A program made the position numbers and the translations under genes. The notes beneath the pieces are model-generated. The model searched no databases, was not told the origin of the DNA, and worked only from the letters and a program-made list of their open reading frames with translations. This document shows, in pieces, positions 44,330 through 51,513 of a DNA stretch of 64,000 bases; within the stretch, counting starts at the first letter, position 1; every line of letters begins with the position of its first letter. This DNA comes from Candidatus Thorarchaeota archaeon (GTDB lineage Archaea; Asgardarchaeota; Thorarchaeia; Thorarchaeales; Thorarchaeaceae): NCBI GenBank assembly GCA_019057475.1, contig DXJO01000007.1:1-64000 (forward strand), in the 5' to 3' direction.

Positions 44330-45022
44330 CTAGACCGGTTGCCCACACTTGCCGCAGAACTTGGAACCCGCAGGCAGTGGTTGGCCACACTTCGTACAGA
44401 ACCCGCCGCCTCCCTCTGTGGGCACGTGGATGTGGATGGTTTCGCCCCCGCCTTGAGCTGGTGCTCCTCCGCCGCCTTCGAGTGGCGCTCCACACTTTGG
44501 ACATGTTGTGGCATTGGGAGCAGTTGTACCGCAATATGGGCACTTGCCTTCGTTCTGGGCAGAATTGACATTTGCAATGACAGAGGGAATGACCTTGCTC
44601 TGCTTGAACTCAAACTGCATGTTTCCGCCTGATTTGAGCTCGACTATCAGTTTCTTACCGCTCTGAGTTGCTTGACTGATTGCCACAAGCGGGAGGGCGA
44701 TGGTTTCCGTATTTCCGTTCTTATCCTTGTTGTAATAGGAATCCATGGTCCATGAAGAGACCGCCACGCCAATGGATGCATAGGCTACTGTTCGGCCAGC
44801 ACGCCGAATCGCGCGTCCGGCAACGCCGCCAATGCTATCTCCAATTATGTCAGCGGCTATAGCTCCACCAACTGCAGCAGCGATTCCTCCGAACTTTCCC
44901 ATGCCGCCCCATTTCGAAGGCTTCTTGATCCATACGATGCGAACATCGGTGAGCTCGAGTGAGCCATCCTCACCATCAAACTTCACATCTTTTTCTCGTA
45001 TCATCTTCTTTTCATAGTTCAT
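44330..45022 (-). CDS. PH-like domain with a glycine-zipper insert and two C-terminal zinc ribbons
   Basis: G.L.LT..RIV (PH-like), Gly/Ala-rich segment, CPYCG..CPKCG, CTKCG..FCGKCG; start at MNYEKK. Confidence 0.75.
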   Translation of the reverse strand: MNYEKKMIREKDVKFDGEDGSLELTDVRIVWIKKPSKWGGMGKFGGIAAAVGGAIAADIIGDSIGGVAGRAIRRAGRTVAYASIGVAVSSWTMDSYYNKDKNGNTETIALPLVAISQATQSGKKLIVELKSGGNMQFEFKQSKVIPSVIANVNSAQNEGKCPYCGTTAPNATTCPKCGAPLEGGGGAPAQGGGETIHIHVPTEGGGGFCTKCGQPLPAGSKFCGKCGQPV

Positions 45023-45212
45023 GGTCGTGAGACCAGAACCCGAATAGGTCACTGTTAGAAAGCCAGGTCGTTCTCCCAAGTTTAACACCGACCGTTTCTT
45101 GATATCAAATGATTTTAACTTTGCTGAGGATGAACTACGGAACTGCATGTGACAATCAAATCATATCGTCGACCTTCCCACCAAGGAAGATCTAGCAGTT
45201 CGCACTTAGTGA

Positions 45213-46724
45213 TTACTCCTCCATGGGTTTATCGTCGAATACTTCAGTAGGCCACGACTCCGTGAATTCTTCCGAAGACTTGTCCCCGAGCACATCTGAT
45301 TCCATCGATGGTGTCGCCCAAGTGTCCTCTGTAGGGATTGGTTTTGGCTGGGCAAGTCCGTGTCTAATCAACAGCACACCCACTAAGGATACGATCGCTA
45401 TCCCCGTTAGTGTCAACGGAAAGCCATACATGGGAACGAGCATACCAAATAGTGCGATCTGCGGAATGGCAAAGACAATCGCTACGGTTGGAATGAGCGA
45501 GTAGATGCTGTTACGAATGCGATTCGGAATGACATCCAGGAGCATGCGTTGTGTGAGAATCTCTGCAAATCCGCCAAAGAAGCTCGTAGCGGCAAATGTG
45601 ATGAAAGCAAGGACAATAGGGATGATCGATTGCTGTGGTATGCTCACTATGATCAAGTCGGTGAAAGGCCACAATACATCAATTGTAGGCGCATTTGCCA
45701 GCGGCGGAGGAAAGATATAGGTAATTGCTGCAAGGATTCCAAAGAATAGGAAACCACACGTTTGAAGGAGACGAAAACGGGGTATCCATTTGATGGGCTC
45801 AAATCGTTTTGACCAAATGCCTGACCGCTCCCGTGCTGCGACTCCTGGCAAGAATAAGAGTGTACGATAGCTTGCTACTGCTACGTCGGTAATAAGGTAG
45901 CTAAAGTAGAAAGGAAAGAGAATCAGATTCCCCCAAACCATTATGCTGCTGATTGTTAACATCCCTCCGATGATAAGGTATTTGACAAACTTATCACCGA
46001 ACAGGAAATTCACTCCGGACCTGAGTATTGACAAGTATTCACTTGTGGAAGGGCGTTTCTCTCGGGCTTCTCGAACCTCTGGGAAGTCCACTACATATTT
46101 GAATACTGCAATTGCTACCACCACACAGAGGACAGCCTGGAGCTGAAACACCCAAGCCCTCTGAAATAGCATGGCCAGAATGCTGCCAGGAATCAGTGAC
46201 AGCGTCGCGACTATCCCAAAGACCATTCCAATCCGACCTTGAAAGACACCGTACTGTTTTCTATCAGTGTCCTCAGGCATCGCCGCCCTGTAATTATTGT
46301 CAAACCAAGCACCAAATGCTCCACTCTCTTGCGCCGATGCGAATCCTTGTAGTGCATAGATTACAACCAGAAAGAGGAATGGAGTCGAGCTGGTGACCAG
46401 CGACACCATATAGAATACGACACCATATAGAATGAAGGCTGAAGAGATTATATATCGCTGGCCAAGCCAGTCCCCGATCCCTCCTGTAGGATAGTCGAAA
46501 ATTGTTTGTACCGCCAGCTGAATAACTACAAGAACACCTACCAAGCCCATACCCTGCATAAAGTCGCCGCTCCCCAGAGCCTCTGCTATGAAAATGACGT
46601 AAAACGTTGTTGAGAGCATGACCGTCACGGAAATTATGGGGAAGAATACAATCATGAGCCGAGCCATTCTCATTATCCTATCGTTGGGTTCAGTGAAACC
46701 AAAGAAGTTCGCTAATCTACTCAT
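45213..46724 (-). CDS. MFS transporter
   Basis: DYPTG.IGDWLGQR (motif A-like), SGAF.AWF, IPN.IR..IYS; about 12 TM. Confidence 0.9.
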   Translation of the reverse strand: MSRLANFFGFTEPNDRIMRMARLMIVFFPIISVTVMLSTTFYVIFIAEALGSGDFMQGMGLVGVLVVIQLAVQTIFDYPTGGIGDWLGQRYIISSAFILYGVVFYMVSLVTSSTPFLFLVVIYALQGFASAQESGAFGAWFDNNYRAAMPEDTDRKQYGVFQGRIGMVFGIVATLSLIPGSILAMLFQRAWVFQLQAVLCVVVAIAVFKYVVDFPEVREAREKRPSTSEYLSILRSGVNFLFGDKFVKYLIIGGMLTISSIMVWGNLILFPFYFSYLITDVAVASYRTLLFLPGVAARERSGIWSKRFEPIKWIPRFRLLQTCGFLFFGILAAITYIFPPPLANAPTIDVLWPFTDLIIVSIPQQSIIPIVLAFITFAATSFFGGFAEILTQRMLLDVIPNRIRNSIYSLIPTVAIVFAIPQIALFGMLVPMYGFPLTLTGIAIVSLVGVLLIRHGLAQPKPIPTEDTWATPSMESDVLGDKSSEEFTESWPTEVFDDKPMEE

Positions 46725-46916: not shown

Positions 46917-48356
46917 CTACTCCGCAGGGACCGCCAGTGAGATAGACTCTGTTTTGGCTATGTCGTCGTGCTTAGCTGGAATCGGGTAGCTTAGACCTTT
47001 CCGAATCATGACAACTCCGATCAAAGCCACGATTCCAACAGATGCTAGAGTCACAGGAAAGCCAGCTGTTGGTATTAGCCAGCCAAACAGCGCAATCTGA
47101 GGGATTGCGAAGATTGTTGCTATTGTAGGAGATAGAGAGTACATGCCGTTCCTGATCTTGTTCGGGATTACATCTAGTAGGATTCTCTGAGTTAGAATCT
47201 CAGCGAACCCACCGAACAATCCAGTCAGCGTGAATGTACACATTATCAATAGCACTGGCAAAACTGAACTAGCTGGCATCCGCATAATGGCAATGGTTGT
47301 GAAAGGTAGAATCACATCGATGATTGCCCCACCTGCGGCAGGGGGAAAGAGAAACATCGTGATTGCCAACACAATGTAGAACAAGAAACCTCCGAACTGA
47401 AGGAGTCGGAACCGCGGAATCCATGTCGTTGGATCGAATTTCCTAGACCAAACGCCAGATCTTTCCTGTGTGAAGATTCCGGGAATGAATAGAATTGTTC
47501 TGAAACTTGATACTGCGATGTCTGAAACCAAATACGAGAAGTATAGAGGGAAGAGAATCAGCTCAAACCATACGAATCCTGCGCTCCATATAACGCAGCC
47601 TCCAATGGTTACGTACATCATGAACTTATTACTGAACAGGAAACTAACTCCAGACTTCAGTAGCGATGTGTACTCGTTCATGGTCGGCTTCTGTCTGGCA
47701 GCCTCTACTTCAGGGAAATCCTGCACCAGACGAAGCACGATTGCAGCTATGACCACGCACAACACTGCTTGAAGCTGGAATACCCACGCCCTGCCGAGAA
47801 GCGCTGCGATGATGCTTCCAGGTATCAGAGCTGCAGTTGCCACGATTTGGAAAAGCATTCCGATTTTTCCCCAAAACACGCCATACTGCTTTCTGTCCTT
47901 ATCACCAGGCATCGCTACTCTGTAGTTATTATCAAACCAAGCATTGAATGAGCCACTGAGCTGGGAGCTTCCAATACCCATCAAAGCATAGAGAGCAATC
48001 AGGAAGACGAAGGGAGTGGTGCTATTAACCAGCGAGACCATGTAGTATGCAAGGCCATAACAAAGGAATGCGGACGCTATCACGTAGCGTTGACCAATCC
48101 AATCGCCTATCGCACCTGTTGGGTAATCCAACAAGGTCTGGACGACCATCTGAATGACGATCAAAAATCCTACGAGCATCATTCCGTCAATGAAGGAGCC
48201 ACCGCCCAAGGCCTCCGCCACGAAGACCATGAAGAAAGTGGTGCTAAGCTGTATTGTAGCAGCCACAACAGGAAGCAGCATAGACATTATCTTAGCTAAC
48301 CGCAGGATCTTATCGTTTGCGTCAGTCAATCCAAAGAAGGTACCTAGTTTGCTCAC
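46917..48356 (-). CDS. MFS transporter, paralog of 45213-46724
   Basis: Same motifs (DYPTGAIGDWIGQR, WFDNNYR.AMP.D.DRKQYGVF.G). The GTG start at 48356 follows GGAGGTG and aligns with the paralog N-terminus. Confidence 0.9.
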   Translation of the reverse strand: MSKLGTFFGLTDANDKILRLAKIMSMLLPVVAATIQLSTTFFMVFVAEALGGGSFIDGMMLVGFLIVIQMVVQTLLDYPTGAIGDWIGQRYVIASAFLCYGLAYYMVSLVNSTTPFVFLIALYALMGIGSSQLSGSFNAWFDNNYRVAMPGDKDRKQYGVFWGKIGMLFQIVATAALIPGSIIAALLGRAWVFQLQAVLCVVIAAIVLRLVQDFPEVEAARQKPTMNEYTSLLKSGVSFLFSNKFMMYVTIGGCVIWSAGFVWFELILFPLYFSYLVSDIAVSSFRTILFIPGIFTQERSGVWSRKFDPTTWIPRFRLLQFGGFLFYIVLAITMFLFPPAAGGAIIDVILPFTTIAIMRMPASSVLPVLLIMCTFTLTGLFGGFAEILTQRILLDVIPNKIRNGMYSLSPTIATIFAIPQIALFGWLIPTAGFPVTLASVGIVALIGVVMIRKGLSYPIPAKHDDIAKTESISLAVPAE

Positions 48357-48475
48357 TACAAGCACCTCCGCTCATGACTGCCATAGAGAACTGCCGTGAC
48401 GCGAGTCCCCTTTGGGGCAAATACTGCGCATTCCACGCAGGCTGCTGCATCTGTCGGTGTTGTTTCACTTCTCAT
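48356..48475 (-). CDS. putative 39-aa small ORF with CxxC, coupled to the MFS start
   Basis: MRSETTPTDAAACVECAVFAPKGTRVTAVLYGSHERRCL*; RBS-like GTGAGGT upstream; TAG overlaps the MFS GTG (TAGTG). The frame could extend to 48562. Confidence 0.4.
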   Translation of the reverse strand: MRSETTPTDAAACVECAVFAPKGTRVTAVLYGSHERRCL

Positions 48476-48567
48476 TTCGTAGACCTCACATTTCTTTGGA
48501 CTGGTCACACTATATCCCGTTGATGGGCAATGGTGCCCAATTCTGTGACCACTCGTGACCATGCAGT

Positions 48568-48669
48568 TTACCTTCTGTAGGCAAAAGCGTAAGAAACCGC
48601 TTCAGTAGACTGAACCTTTGCGATCTTCTTCAGCACGGATGAATCTCGATTGTTTGATGCTAGGGCCAT
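48568..48669 (-). CDS. 33-aa small peptide (paralog B)
   Basis: MALASNNRDSSVLKKIAKVQSTEAVSYAFAYRR*; GGAG RBS; 25/33 identical to the peptide at 48821-48928, with many synonymous differences. Confidence 0.8.
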   Translation of the reverse strand: MALASNNRDSSVLKKIAKVQSTEAVSYAFAYRR

Positions 48670-48728
48670 ACTATCATACTCCTAAGTTTGTGTGCCAAAC
48701 CTTTCTGTAGTCCATGGCTTGCACATAA

Positions 48729-48751
48729 GTCTATATAAAGGTTTTCTCTCC
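48729..48751 (-). promoter_or_regulatory. archaeal BRE plus TATA promoter for peptide B and the MFS genes
   Basis: Minus strand GGAGAGAAAACCTTTATATAGAC (purine-rich BRE, then TTTATATA). Confidence 0.65.
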
Positions 48752-48820
48752 AAACCATATCCTGTGTAATCGTCTGGAGTTAAAACCCAATCATTCACTT
48801 ATCAGACACCTCTACACAAT

Positions 48821-48928
48821 CTACCTTCGGTAGGTGAATGCAAAGCTGATTGCTTCAGTTGACTGGATCTTCACGATATTCTTGTTCTTGAGCGCTGACG
48901 AGTTCCGGTTGTTAGTTGCTAGAGCCAT
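48821..48928 (-). CDS. 35-aa small peptide (paralog A)
   Basis: MALATNNRNSSALKNKNIVKIQSTEAISFAFTYRR*; TATA-like TTATATAC ~30 nt upstream (48959-48966); paralog of 48568-48669. Confidence 0.8.
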   Translation of the reverse strand: MALATNNRNSSALKNKNIVKIQSTEAISFAFTYRR

Positions 48929-49216
48929 TATATCTCACAAGATATCCTCTCAGAATCAGTATATAATGCGAAGCCACAATTCAGGGTCACAGAAAGTGGT
49001 CACATCTTGTGACTATGTAAAGGGAGTCTGACAGTCAAACATATATCTGAACGAGTGATTGATGAATCAGAGGATGAGGGTACAAAGAGCACGCTCTCCT
49101 CTCACTCAGAAGACCCACACTGTTTGGGTTCCTTCTGGCATAAGTCACTTCTCATCCTAGTGAAGGATTACTTCCAATACAGGTCAATGGTATTCCTGTG
49201 CTGACAGTACCTGCAC

Positions 49217-49770
49217 TTGAGTGGTTCTCCCGCCTTCAGCTTGGTGACCTCAATGAGGGTCAGAAACCGACCAAGTGATGATGCAAAGATGTTGATCCCA
49301 ATGCTCGAAGGGATGTGGGCAGATGAGCTTGAGGTGGTCTATGGTGACAAGGCGTACCTGTCGAAGATCAATGTGACCTACATTCACAGTCTGAGTGCAA
49401 AAGCTGTGATTGAACCGAAGAGGGGATTGACTGGGAAGGCTCATGGACACGGGGAGTACGCAAGGCTGGTGAAGGAGTATCCTGGAAATCCCGAGGATGG
49501 AAGGAGAAATACGAGTACGGGAAGAGGAGTCTGGTGGAGAGTGTGTTTGGAGCCGTGAAGGTGAAGTTCGGAGGGATATTGAGGTCAAGGTGATACAACA
49601 GGAGTCTTGTGGAAACCGTGTTCAGCATGATGAAGCTGAGATTCGGGGGAGGACTGAGTTCGAGAAGGTACAGAGAGCAGAGGAGAGAGTTACTCATCAT
49701 AGTGATCCTACATAATATCGGGAGGGTGAACTTCTTGGAGTATGCCGGGAGGTGATTTATTGGACAGAGC
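49217..49770 (+). mobile_element. degraded, 5'-truncated IS5-family (IS903-like) transposase remnant with right terminal repeat
   Basis: DDE motifs D....IPML, YGDKAY, then frameshifted Y..RSLVE.VF...K..FG. The right end reads GCTCTGTCCAATAAATC on the reverse complement (49754-49770), resembling the IS903 repeat as recalled (GGCTTTGTTGAATAAATC). Confidence 0.85.
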
Positions 49771-49810
49771 TTAAGAAAAGAAGGTTTTAAATAAAACAAT
49801 GATGAGTTAG

Positions 49811-49840
49811 ATAATTGCAATTATTTTTTGTAATTGCAAC
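49811..49840. promoter_or_regulatory. candidate operator palindrome
   Basis: Perfect 14-bp palindrome ATAATTGCAATTAT (49811-49824) plus a second partial copy TAATTGCAA, located between a TATA-like TTTAAATA and the ATG at 49860. Confidence 0.5.
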
Positions 49841-49859
49841 GAAGTATAATGTGAGAGAA

Positions 49860-50474
49860 ATGAAAGCAAAATTCAAATCCAAATATAAATCTGCAATCTC
49901 TCTAGCGATGTTTTTGGTTTTAGTAAACACCATGGTAATTGCTGCACCCGTGAAAGCCGCTGATCCCAGTCGCATCTTAATGATTGATATCATGGCGATA
50001 GGAGACGATTTTGATGTTCCTGGAGCTAGAAGCTCTATCATAGGTAGGATTGAATACAATAAAGTCACCGGTGAATGTCAGGGACAGGTAGAATTTCATT
50101 TAAAACTCTATGATGAATCAGGTGAGAAAGTTTATTCGATGAAGGGAAAGCTCAAAGACGCGGCAGTTATGGAAATTCCCGCCTATTATTGCAATGTACG
50201 GGACGTCACGTGGACTAACTTATGGCTTGTCATAGGCGAGGGAAAAATTAAAACTACTGATACAGATATCGAGATAGAATATCGAGGGAATCTAATAACC
50301 TTGCCTAATACCGGAGGTCAGTATATCACAATAAACCTCGCTATGCTTGTAAGCCCTAATGGTGAATATATTGGGGGAGTTTGGGAACAAGGAGGATGGG
50401 CTGCTGCAGGAATGTTGGGAGTATTCGGTGCGGGAACCTATTTGACAAAATATATGGAAAAATTGGTCCCATAA
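49860..50474 (+). CDS. secreted hypothetical protein
   Basis: Signal peptide MKAKFKSKYKSAISLAMFLVLVNTMVIAAPVKA; beta-rich mature part; AT-rich. Confidence 0.75.
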   Translation: MKAKFKSKYKSAISLAMFLVLVNTMVIAAPVKAADPSRILMIDIMAIGDDFDVPGARSSIIGRIEYNKVTGECQGQVEFHLKLYDESGEKVYSMKGKLKDAAVMEIPAYYCNVRDVTWTNLWLVIGEGKIKTTDTDIEIEYRGNLITLPNTGGQYITINLAMLVSPNGEYIGGVWEQGGWAAAGMLGVFGAGTYLTKYMEKLVP

Positions 50475-50887
50475 CACCACATCAAGCACGAATGTGCCTG
50501 AAATAAGAATGAGGATTCTTCTCACAAATGAGCCGCGCTATTGGGAAACGCCGGTGAAACCCCCGAAGACAAAAGGTCGTGAGTTTCGGGTTCACAGGGG
50601 TAGGAAACTCTCAAGTAGAATGGACTGGCAGCCAGACACAGCGAAGAGTACCAAGAAAGGAAGAGAGAAGCCAATAAGGCTCAAGAAGGATTATCCTATA
50701 ATCTGGCGTCGATATCAGACCATACAAGGCTCCAAGAACAACGAGCTTTGGTATTTGATGATGAAGGTCTCATGATGCACCTCGCCGCACTTGCACTATT
50801 AGATTGTGACCACAAGATGTGCTTGAAAACGGTTCAATCTCATTTTGTTCACTGGTACTGTAGGTTGACGGATCAGCCAACTAGGAA

Positions 50888-51232
50888 TTGTGGGGGAAAC
50901 ATCACAAAGTACTGCACCACCACAGACAGCAGGATGCCACTCAACACGAGCCCCTTTCCCTTCCCAGTGTTGATGTCAGTGAACCAGAGGATTGCTTCCA
51001 CAAGGACCACGATCACCCCACAGATGGAATGTTCGAGGACACAGATGGCTCCCCAACGGGGTTAGACGATTGGCCTATCGAATGGGTTGACGTGGAAGAA
51101 GAGAAGCACATGCGAGATATGAGATCATGGACCTGTCCCAAATGTTGGGCATCCCTCCTGCCTGACCTTGTTGAATCCATTTTGGCGGGTAGAACTGGGT
51201 CCTGTCCATTCTGTGGCACCACCCTTGGTTGA
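50888..51232 (+). CDS. hypothetical zinc-ribbon protein (start uncertain)
   Basis: C-terminal WTCPKC...CPFCG with an acidic region before it. Confidence 0.5.
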   Translation: MWGKHHKVLHHHRQQDATQHEPLSLPSVDVSEPEDCFHKDHDHPTDGMFEDTDGSPTGLDDWPIEWVDVEEEKHMRDMRSWTCPKCWASLLPDLVESILAGRTGSCPFCGTTLG

Positions 51233-51513
51233 GCAATGCATAGATTGCTATTAGATTAAGGCCACGCTGAAAAAGGGAACCGTTTATGTTTACTGGGTCA
51301 AGAAGTAGTTCTCCTACACTACAACGTCACATGTGAGTGAAGGCTGGGTGAAAAAATAAATCGCAAGAGTATTAGACCAAGAGACCCTTGACAACAAATA
51401 CTGACTCTCTGGGCCAGTGTTTCAGTGACACACGAAGTTCTCCATGAACAAACATATTACAGACCATCTTGCGAACCAATGACATACAAACCATCAACGA
51501 GAGGTTGTTAACG

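What the first reader, a model, noticed from the sequence alone, without database searches (positions are those of the whole stretch)
48568..48966. Two unannotated paralogous micro-peptide genes under purifying selection, heading an MFS transporter pair
SEEN: two short minus-strand ORFs fall below the ORF-track cutoff. A (48821-48928) is MALATNNRNSSALKNKNIVKIQSTEAISFAFTYRR* and B (48568-48669) is MALASNNRDSSVLKKIAKVQSTEAVSYAFAYRR*. By hand alignment 25/33 residues are identical and most differences are conservative (T/S, N/D, I/V, F/Y). 12 of the 25 identical residues use different codons, including AGC vs TCT for Ser. The stops differ (TAG/TAA), the length difference is exactly two codons, and the flanks are not similar, so selection acts on the peptide and not the DNA. 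Each ORF has its own TATA-like box, and both lie directly upstream of and co-oriented with two paralogous MFS genes. The peptide has a polar/basic N-half and a conserved C-terminal QSTEAxS[FY]AF[TA]YRR with alternating aromatics, but no TM helix or Sec signal. INFERENCE: this could be an undescribed peptide-plus-transporter system in an Asgard-like archaeon. The options are an exported signalling or antimicrobial peptide precursor, a micro-protein regulator of the MFS, or a nascent-chain arrest leader. No modifying enzyme is encoded nearby.
Basis: partly seen in the sequence, partly recalled or inferred. Interest (0 to 1): 0.9.

Follow-up and report, generated by a model that had tools for sequence, protein, structure and literature searches.

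The report
Thorarchaeota multicopy micropeptide regulon
The two tiny genes are real members of an undescribed family of 27-40-residue peptides that nearly every Thorarchaeota (Asgard archaea) genome keeps in several copies under three conserved promoter types, together with efflux-type transporters and an acetyltransferase; what the peptides do is inferred, not shown.

Summary
Confirmed and larger than reported. ORFs A and B are under purifying selection and belong to a peptide family found in 84 of 86 genomes of one Thorarchaeota family (up to 14 matches per genome) and essentially nowhere else in the phylum. The canonical unit is promoter -> P1 -> P2 (basic, core STxA[IL]xYAY) -> P3 (acidic, ends EVLALEAT, overlapped by a covarying hairpin and U-tract). 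Where P3 is missing, an MFS gene usually follows (22 of 29). The window stacks three promoter classes (A, B, C), each heading a short ORF (a third, 39 aa, was missed), before the MFS pair. Class B is the probable operator of a PH1932-like ArsR regulator whose paralogues flank peptidases; classes A/C also drive a 1,100-aa GNAT, a bactofilin and a membrane protein. MFS linkage is real but not obligatory; the terminal Arg largely reflects an overlapping Shine-Dalgarno site. No match in Pfam, NCBIfam, PDB, Rfam or searched papers. Best guess (35%): processed, exported peptide effector; cytoplasmic microprotein 30%; arrest leader 15%. The scan noted this family before in other genomes (e1-5448073, e1-5448578).

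The parts
48959..49015 (-). Class A promoter: GTCAC-N5-GTGAC palindrome (48999-49015), direct half-site repeats (48984-48991, 48968-48977), TATA box (48959-48967)
   Evidence: Conserved in 61 cassettes across genera; 60/65 metagenome copies are followed by P1; coordinates
48821..48928 (-). Peptide A, 35 aa, P1 type; start about 31 nt after the TATA box, so nearly leaderless (inferred)
48686..48756 (-). Class B promoter: two GTTTG-N5-CAAAC sites (48741-48756, 48686-48701) around a TATA box (48732-48740); probable operator of the PH1932-like ArsR regulator encoded elsewhere (contig C21)
   Evidence: Same layout at the regulator-linked locus C21; motif in 14/24 regulator-linked cassettes vs 3/86 others; also just upstream of regulator genes lacking peptides
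48568..48669 (-). Peptide B, 33 aa, P1 type
48502..48560 (-). Class C promoter: TGGTCAC repeats, weak TATA-like CATATC/GATATA, GTGACCA; same half-site as class A
   Evidence: 32 copies aligned; genome scan finds this one, C46 (peptide cassette) and C40 (GNAT)
48356..48475 (-).
   Evidence: Frame open in four genus orthologues and L270; equivalent short ORFs at L090, L232; profile score -2 bits
46917..48356 (-). MFS transporter 1 (lineage-specific subfamily); probable start GTG at 48356 (longest ORF begins 48365)
   Evidence: Pfam MFS_1 E=1.4e-12; no NCBIfam match; follows peptide cassettes in several genera
45213..46724 (-). MFS transporter 2, paralogue; no A/B/C motif in its own upstream region
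   Evidence: Pfam MFS_1

Best explanation
A and B are P1-type members of a family-wide Thorarchaeota peptide system whose products act in trans. SHOWN: the peptides are selected, multicopy, made from short cassettes (P1-P2-P3 or P1-P2-MFS) with stop codons overlapping the next ribosome-binding site; three promoter classes each drive homologous peptides; the window stacks all three ahead of an MFS pair. INFERRED FROM MOTIFS: class B is bound by an adjacent PH1932-like ArsR regulator; classes A/C belong to a second, unidentified regulator that also controls a 1,100-aa GNAT, a bactofilin and a membrane protein; so three inputs converge on peptide plus transporter at this locus. HYPOTHESIS: the basic, variable N-half is a leader removed by peptidases of the kind that flank the regulator's paralogues (TldD/PmbA, M32), the conserved core STxA[IL]xYAY (perhaps acetylated by the co-regulated GNAT) is the effector, and the co-transcribed MFS moves it across the membrane as a signal of cell state, with the acidic P3 as an intracellular partner at loci without a transporter.
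For: Family in 84/86 genomes, about 586 matches, P3 in 70/85. Conserved C-terminal core and variable middle. Products needed without a downstream gene: 44/61 P3-ended and 22/49 P1/P2-ended cassettes face convergent genes. Two unrelated MFS subfamilies recruited behind cassettes, one Mef/EntS-like. Regulator divergent from 24/110 cassettes, present in 77/85 genomes, fold like PH1932; its peptide-less paralogues sit beside TldD/PmbA, M32 carboxypeptidase, a C45 peptidase and the same MFS subfamily. GNAT carries class A and/or C promoters in 23/30 orthologues, against 4 strong hits among 2854 genes here.
Against: No expression, processing, export or binding datum. Three of five loci in this genome and all 15 P3-ended class-A metagenome cassettes lack an MFS. 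No cleavage motif or signal is evident, and an intact 33-mer is large for an MFS (own knowledge). The MFS association rests on two or three ancestral loci, so the counts are not independent. P3/MFS exclusivity may only reflect that P3 carries the terminator. Peptidase neighbours belong to the regulator's paralogues, not to the cassette-linked orthologue.
Confidence: 0.35

Rival explanations
1. Cytoplasmic microprotein regulators: P1, P2 (net charge about +5) and P3 (about -3) are made in fixed ratio and bind a cytoplasmic target (regulator, protease, ribosome or the MFS itself) or each other through their conserved C-terminal motifs; the MFS, GNAT and bactofilin are merely members of the same stress regulon.
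For: No export signal or amphipathicity; universal, vertical, syntenic distribution typical of housekeeping control; tight coupling and charge complementarity (short spacers favour coupling of complex subunits, PMC10666635); a natural P2-P3 fusion P0048 exists and P2/P3 are in frame in 43/59 cassettes; most loci have no transporter.
Against: Does not explain why two unrelated MFS subfamilies are translationally coupled behind peptides; no target identified.
Confidence: 0.3
2. Cis-acting leader or arrest peptides: ribosome passage or stalling on P1/P2 gates the Shine-Dalgarno site at their 3' end and so the translation of the next cistron (P3 or MFS).
For: Lengths of 27-40 codons with conservation near the C-terminus; SD overlaps each stop; P2 is directly coupled to the MFS at many loci (spacers -4 to +9 nt); short ORFs persist before the MFS even when the motif decays (ORF C).
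Against: Core-to-stop distance is 12, 13 or 14 codons in similar numbers; no conserved RNA structure at P1/P2 ends (mean z -0.33, -0.45); A and B have no coupled downstream cistron yet are the best conserved; 22/49 P1/P2-ended cassettes face convergent genes; the same promoters drive GNAT, bactofilin and membrane protein without any peptide.
Confidence: 0.15
3. Leaderless multi-peptide antimicrobial (aureocin A70 / PSM-like) with MFS as exporter and P3 or GNAT as immunity.
For: Tandem cationic 30-35-aa paralogues; efflux-like MFS; GNAT in the regulon.
Against: Hydrophobic moment not above shuffled and far too polar; present in almost every genome at syntenic chromosomal sites rather than patchy; none on viral contigs.
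Confidence: 0.08
4. The RNA is the main product (SD-rich decoy or structured RNA) and the ORFs are secondary.
For: Covarying hairpin at the P3 end; repeated GGAGG sites.
Against: dN/dS 0.25-0.48, codon-sized indels, synonymous variation of invariant residues even inside the hairpin loop; no Rfam hit; hairpin absent at the window locus.
Confidence: 0.04

Closest known systems
PSM / PmtR / Pmt of Staphylococcus aureus (PMC5080381)
   Same: Chromosomal tandem short peptides without signal sequence, a repressor, and a co-regulated exporter; peptides bind the repressor and induce their own export.
   Different: PSMs are amphipathic helices exported by an ABC system and sensed by a GntR protein (amphipathy from own knowledge); here the peptides are not amphipathic, the transporter is MFS, the regulator is ArsR/PH1932-like, and binding is not shown.
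SHP/Rgg and other RRNPP peptide signalling (own knowledge)
   Same: Small peptide gene divergent from a regulator; basic N-terminus, conserved C-terminal core; operator next to the TATA box of the peptide gene.
   Different: Regulator has no TPR domain and folds like PH1932; three peptides per cassette, many cassettes, three promoter classes; archaeal.
Leaderless multi-peptide bacteriocins (aureocin A70, garvicin KS; own knowledge)
   Same: Tandem cationic paralogues of 30-35 aa.
   Different: Not hydrophobic or amphipathic; universal in the family; no ABC exporter or membrane immunity protein in the cassette.
Microcin C cluster (own knowledge)
   Same: Combination of short peptide, MFS exporter and GNAT.
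   Different: No ThiF-type adenylating enzyme was seen beside any cassette; genes dispersed; no sequence similarity.
Ribosome arrest leaders (SecM, TnaC, PepNL; PMC11890864)
   Same: Short ORFs with C-terminal conservation upstream of a transporter.
   Different: Variable register to the stop, no downstream gene at most loci, no known arrest motif.

Membership tests
Any described small-protein family | Profile match in Pfam, NCBIfam, PDB sequences, ESM Atlas | tested here: not met
   48 profile hits among 1.84 billion proteins; those read are this family and the 10 looked up are unnamed or 'hypothetical'
PSM / leaderless bacteriocin | Amphipathic, hydrophobic helix | tested here: not met
   Core moment at 100 degrees 0.26 vs 0.21 shuffled (P1), 0.19 vs 0.24 (P2); best 15-mer hydropathy median 0.35 and -0.1
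PSM / leaderless bacteriocin | Tandem cationic paralogues without signal peptide | tested here: met
   Net charge median +5, length median 33
PSM / leaderless bacteriocin | Killing or membrane activity | not testable with these tools
   needs synthetic peptides
RRNPP peptide signalling | HTH-TPR receptor | tested here: not met
   Linked regulator matches PH1932/ArsR/PadR folds, E=1.6e-7
RRNPP peptide signalling | Peptide gene adjacent to the regulator, with its operator in the peptide promoter | tested here: met
   24/110 cassettes divergent from the regulator; class B motif enriched there; operator assignment is inferred
RRNPP peptide signalling | Mature peptide binds the regulator | not testable with these tools
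   needs EMSA or calorimetry
RiPP cluster | Dedicated modifying enzyme encoded with the precursor | tested here: inconclusive
   No radical SAM, YcaO, ThiF or lanthionine enzyme among the commonest immediate neighbours of 110 cassettes; a Trm112-fused methyltransferase lies convergent at the regulator locus (16 cassettes) and a GNAT shares the promoters in trans
Arrest / attenuator leader peptide | Regulated gene downstream on the same strand | tested here: not met
   66/110 cassettes face a convergent gene; met only at MFS loci
Arrest / attenuator leader peptide | Fixed spacing of conserved residues to the stop codon | tested here: not met
   12, 13, 14 codons in 46, 44, 43 peptides; a stall inside the ORF is not excluded
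Known structured RNA | Rfam match | tested here: not met
   no match up to E=1 in six loci

The most novel reading that the evidence does not exclude
Thorarchaeota run a ribosomally encoded peptide signalling circuit: multicopy precursors under three promoter classes are trimmed and possibly acetylated, moved by dedicated MFS transporters and read by an ArsR/PH1932-type receptor that feeds back on the peptide genes, with a bactofilin and a membrane protein as outputs, i.e. peptide-controlled cell-state or cell-shape switching in Asgard archaea.
Probability: 0.15. Interest if true: 0.92.

Novelty: categorically new. Interest (0 to 1): 0.72.

Why it matters
The family is a near-universal, mostly uncalled signature of one Asgard family (often 5-14 genes per genome) and matches no described protein or RNA family. 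It comes with a reconstructed regulon: three operator motifs, one candidate regulator with an inferred site, and named co-regulated genes. A search of the paper library found nothing on peptide signalling in Asgard archaea. Whichever mechanism holds (exported signal, microprotein complex or archaeal arrest leader), it would be new for this group, and every part is small enough to test in vitro without a cultured organism. The class reflects sequence and architecture; the function is unproven.

Tried and rejected
Co-fold of the regulator dimer with P1: no answer (score 0.01), used neither for nor against. ESM Atlas gave no usable hit for A and only its own cluster for the membrane protein. No class A promoter on viral contigs. 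SD-sequestering hairpins at P1/P2 ends: no consistent signal. Programmed P2-P3 readthrough: in frame 43/59 with TAG 43/59, but a second in-frame TAG in this genus, 16 out-of-frame cases, TAG the commonest stop in the genome and no CUA-anticodon tRNA found by ARAGORN, so not required. PQQ-type ExxxY, HbYX and PIP motifs were considered by eye and rejected because the needed residues are not conserved. One search used a wrong Pfam accession and is uninformative. The PH1932 structure paper is not held. Sigma-70 scan irrelevant for archaea. The regulator for classes A/C was not identified; an HTH_45 gene lies just upstream of the bactofilin promoter but that is not autoregulatory evidence.

Full report
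OBSERVATION. Both ORFs lie at the stated positions on the minus strand. They share 24 of 33 residues with one two-codon gap, 12 of them through different codons. The similarity is far beyond chance (tblastn E=6e-18; clear gap in HMM scores). Synonymous divergence exceeds non-synonymous for A vs B (pS 0.71, pN 0.16) and for disjoint close pairs across the family (dN/dS 0.36 for first peptides, 0.25 for second), and orthologues of B differ by whole-codon indels. The genes are real by these criteria; expression was not testable.

A FAMILY, NOT A PAIR. The organism is Ca. Thorarchaeota. Its genome holds five loci: this one, C21, C46 and two near-identical cassettes broken across contig ends (C37/C51 with C48/C50). 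A 36-sequence profile finds the family in 83 of 85 other genomes of the family, up to 14 matches each, and in 2 of 314 other genomes of the phylum at borderline E-values; one of the two negative genomes has a copy on closer inspection (L176). A search of 1.84 billion proteins returns 48 hits, nearly all 29-46 aa; those read are this family, and the ten looked up are unnamed or 'hypothetical'. Pfam, NCBIfam, PDB, Rfam and the ESM Atlas give nothing, nor do paper searches.

ANATOMY. The canonical cassette is promoter, P1, P2, P3. P1 and P2 are paralogues, median 33 aa, net charge +5, starting MALA and ending in the core STxA[IL]xYAY plus R. P3 is unrelated, 29-40 aa, acidic, variable except for [LI][TS]xE[ED]VLxLEAT; it occurs in 70 of 85 genomes. 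Each stop overlaps a Shine-Dalgarno site: the last Arg is AGG in 102 of 139 peptides against 18% internally, so the RR end is partly a DNA constraint. The P3 stop lies in a hairpin followed by a U-tract; all 40 fold more stably than synonymous recodings (mean z -2.7) and two pairs show compensatory changes (G-C 27 / A-T 6; C-G 32 / T-A 4), while loop residues still vary synonymously (relatedness not corrected). P1/P2 ends show no such structure. None of the peptides is amphipathic or membrane-spanning.

THREE PROMOTER CLASSES. Class A (GTCAC-N5-GTGAC, two further half-sites, TATA) is conserved across genera; of 65 metagenome copies picked by the promoter alone, 60 are followed by P1. Class C uses the same half-site in another layout. 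Class B (GTTTG-N5-CAAAC beside the TATA box) marks the locus divergent from a regulator gene, the commonest neighbour (24 of 110 cassettes; motif in 14 of 24 against 3 of 86 others). The regulator is in 77 of 85 genomes, folds like the ArsR-type PH1932, and the motif also lies just upstream of its gene where no peptides are present, which points to it as the operator (inference). Paralogues of the regulator without peptides lie beside TldD/PmbA, M32 carboxypeptidase, a C45 peptidase and, twice, the window's MFS subfamily. Classes A/C also precede a bactofilin and an unnamed membrane protein (29 of 86 genomes by exact pattern, none with the reversed control) and a 1,100-aa GNAT (23 of 30 orthologues; 4 strong hits among 2854 genes here), without peptides in between.

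THE WINDOW. It stacks class A -> peptide A, class B -> peptide B, class C -> a 39-aa ORF (48356-48475) whose stop overlaps the probable MFS start. The same three modules, in another order, precede the orthologous MFS in other genomes. No terminator-like site separates them, so the MFS probably receives transcripts from all three promoters (inference). ORF C keeps its frame and SD but has lost the core.

MFS LINK. Among promoter-selected loci, none of 15 cassettes ending in P3 leads into an MFS, while 22 of 29 lacking P3 do, of two unrelated subfamilies, one Mef/EntS-like and directly coupled to P2. About 7 MFS genes were detected in this genome (a lower bound), two of them first genes after cassettes. 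The link rests on two or three ancestral loci: real, not obligatory. 44 of 61 P3-ended cassettes face a convergent gene, so the peptides must be products in their own right.

MECHANISM. Shown: selected multicopy peptides, coupled cassettes, three promoter classes, co-regulated genes by motif. Inferred: action in trans, integration of three inputs at this locus. Hypothesis (0.35): the peptides are precursors whose conserved core is released, perhaps acetylated, and moved by the MFS as a signal or effector. Rivals: cytoplasmic microproteins or a P1/P2/P3 complex (0.30; short spacers are typical of coupled complex subunits, PMC10666635); cis-acting arrest leaders (0.15; against: variable register, no downstream gene at most loci, same promoters work without peptides); antimicrobials (0.08); RNA product (0.04).

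COMPARISON. It resembles in layout the PSM-PmtR-Pmt loop (PMC5080381), SHP/Rgg, leaderless bacteriocins, microcin C and arrest leaders (PMC11890864), but fails a defining test of each or leaves it open (see membership table). The cassette was found here before consulting earlier notes; two notes on other genomes report the same three-peptide operon. They are AI notes and not independent support. Elements not seen in the displayed lines of those notes are the stacked A/B/C promoters, the regulator-operator assignment, the peptidase context and the GNAT/bactofilin regulon.

VERDICT. Interest 0.72; categorically new by sequence and architecture, function untested.

Noticed in passing
window 49045-51448: About 2.4-kb insertion relative to the orthologous locus L001, between the 3-hydroxyacyl-CoA dehydrogenase-like gene and promoter A; holds a DDE transposase remnant (49217-49558, 86% identical to a copy on C18) and a 219-aa putative secreted protein without Pfam match.
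   Followed up: partly
G000 C42:252600-257500 (L225): A second paralogue of the 1,100-aa GNAT lies in an operon with two membrane proteins, an ArsR regulator and a weak LiaF-like_C protein, an envelope-stress-like context.
   Followed up: partly
G000 C21:20380-20483 and L069, L092, L109: Several P2 genes appear to start with CTG or TTG 7-8 nt after the SD site.
   Followed up: no
P2-P3 junctions; protein P0048: P3 is in frame with P2 in 43/59 cassettes, mostly behind TAG, and one natural 70-aa fusion exists; in this genus a second in-frame TAG follows.
   Followed up: partly
L013, L028, L059, L063, L067 (G014); G000 C37/C51: Dispersed copies within one genome are nearly identical (same P2 at five loci), suggesting recent duplication or gene conversion; the repeats break assemblies.
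   Followed up: no
L011, L057, L069, L092: Some cassettes have a further upstream context (TGACTCATG / CATGAGTC-like sites or an upstream SD) that fits none of classes A-C.
   Followed up: no
L356: Upstream of a GNAT gene, promoter A is followed by a decayed P1 start and promoter C by a P2-like start running into the GNAT frame, suggesting this locus arose from a cassette.
   Followed up: no
L172 (G130), L173/L174 (G136): Outside the family, a close homologue of the regulator heads a TldD-PmbA operon with the class B motif upstream and no peptides.
   Followed up: partly
window 44330-45148 (-): 272-aa protein with C-terminal double zinc ribbon directly downstream of MFS 2, possibly co-transcribed.
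   Followed up: no
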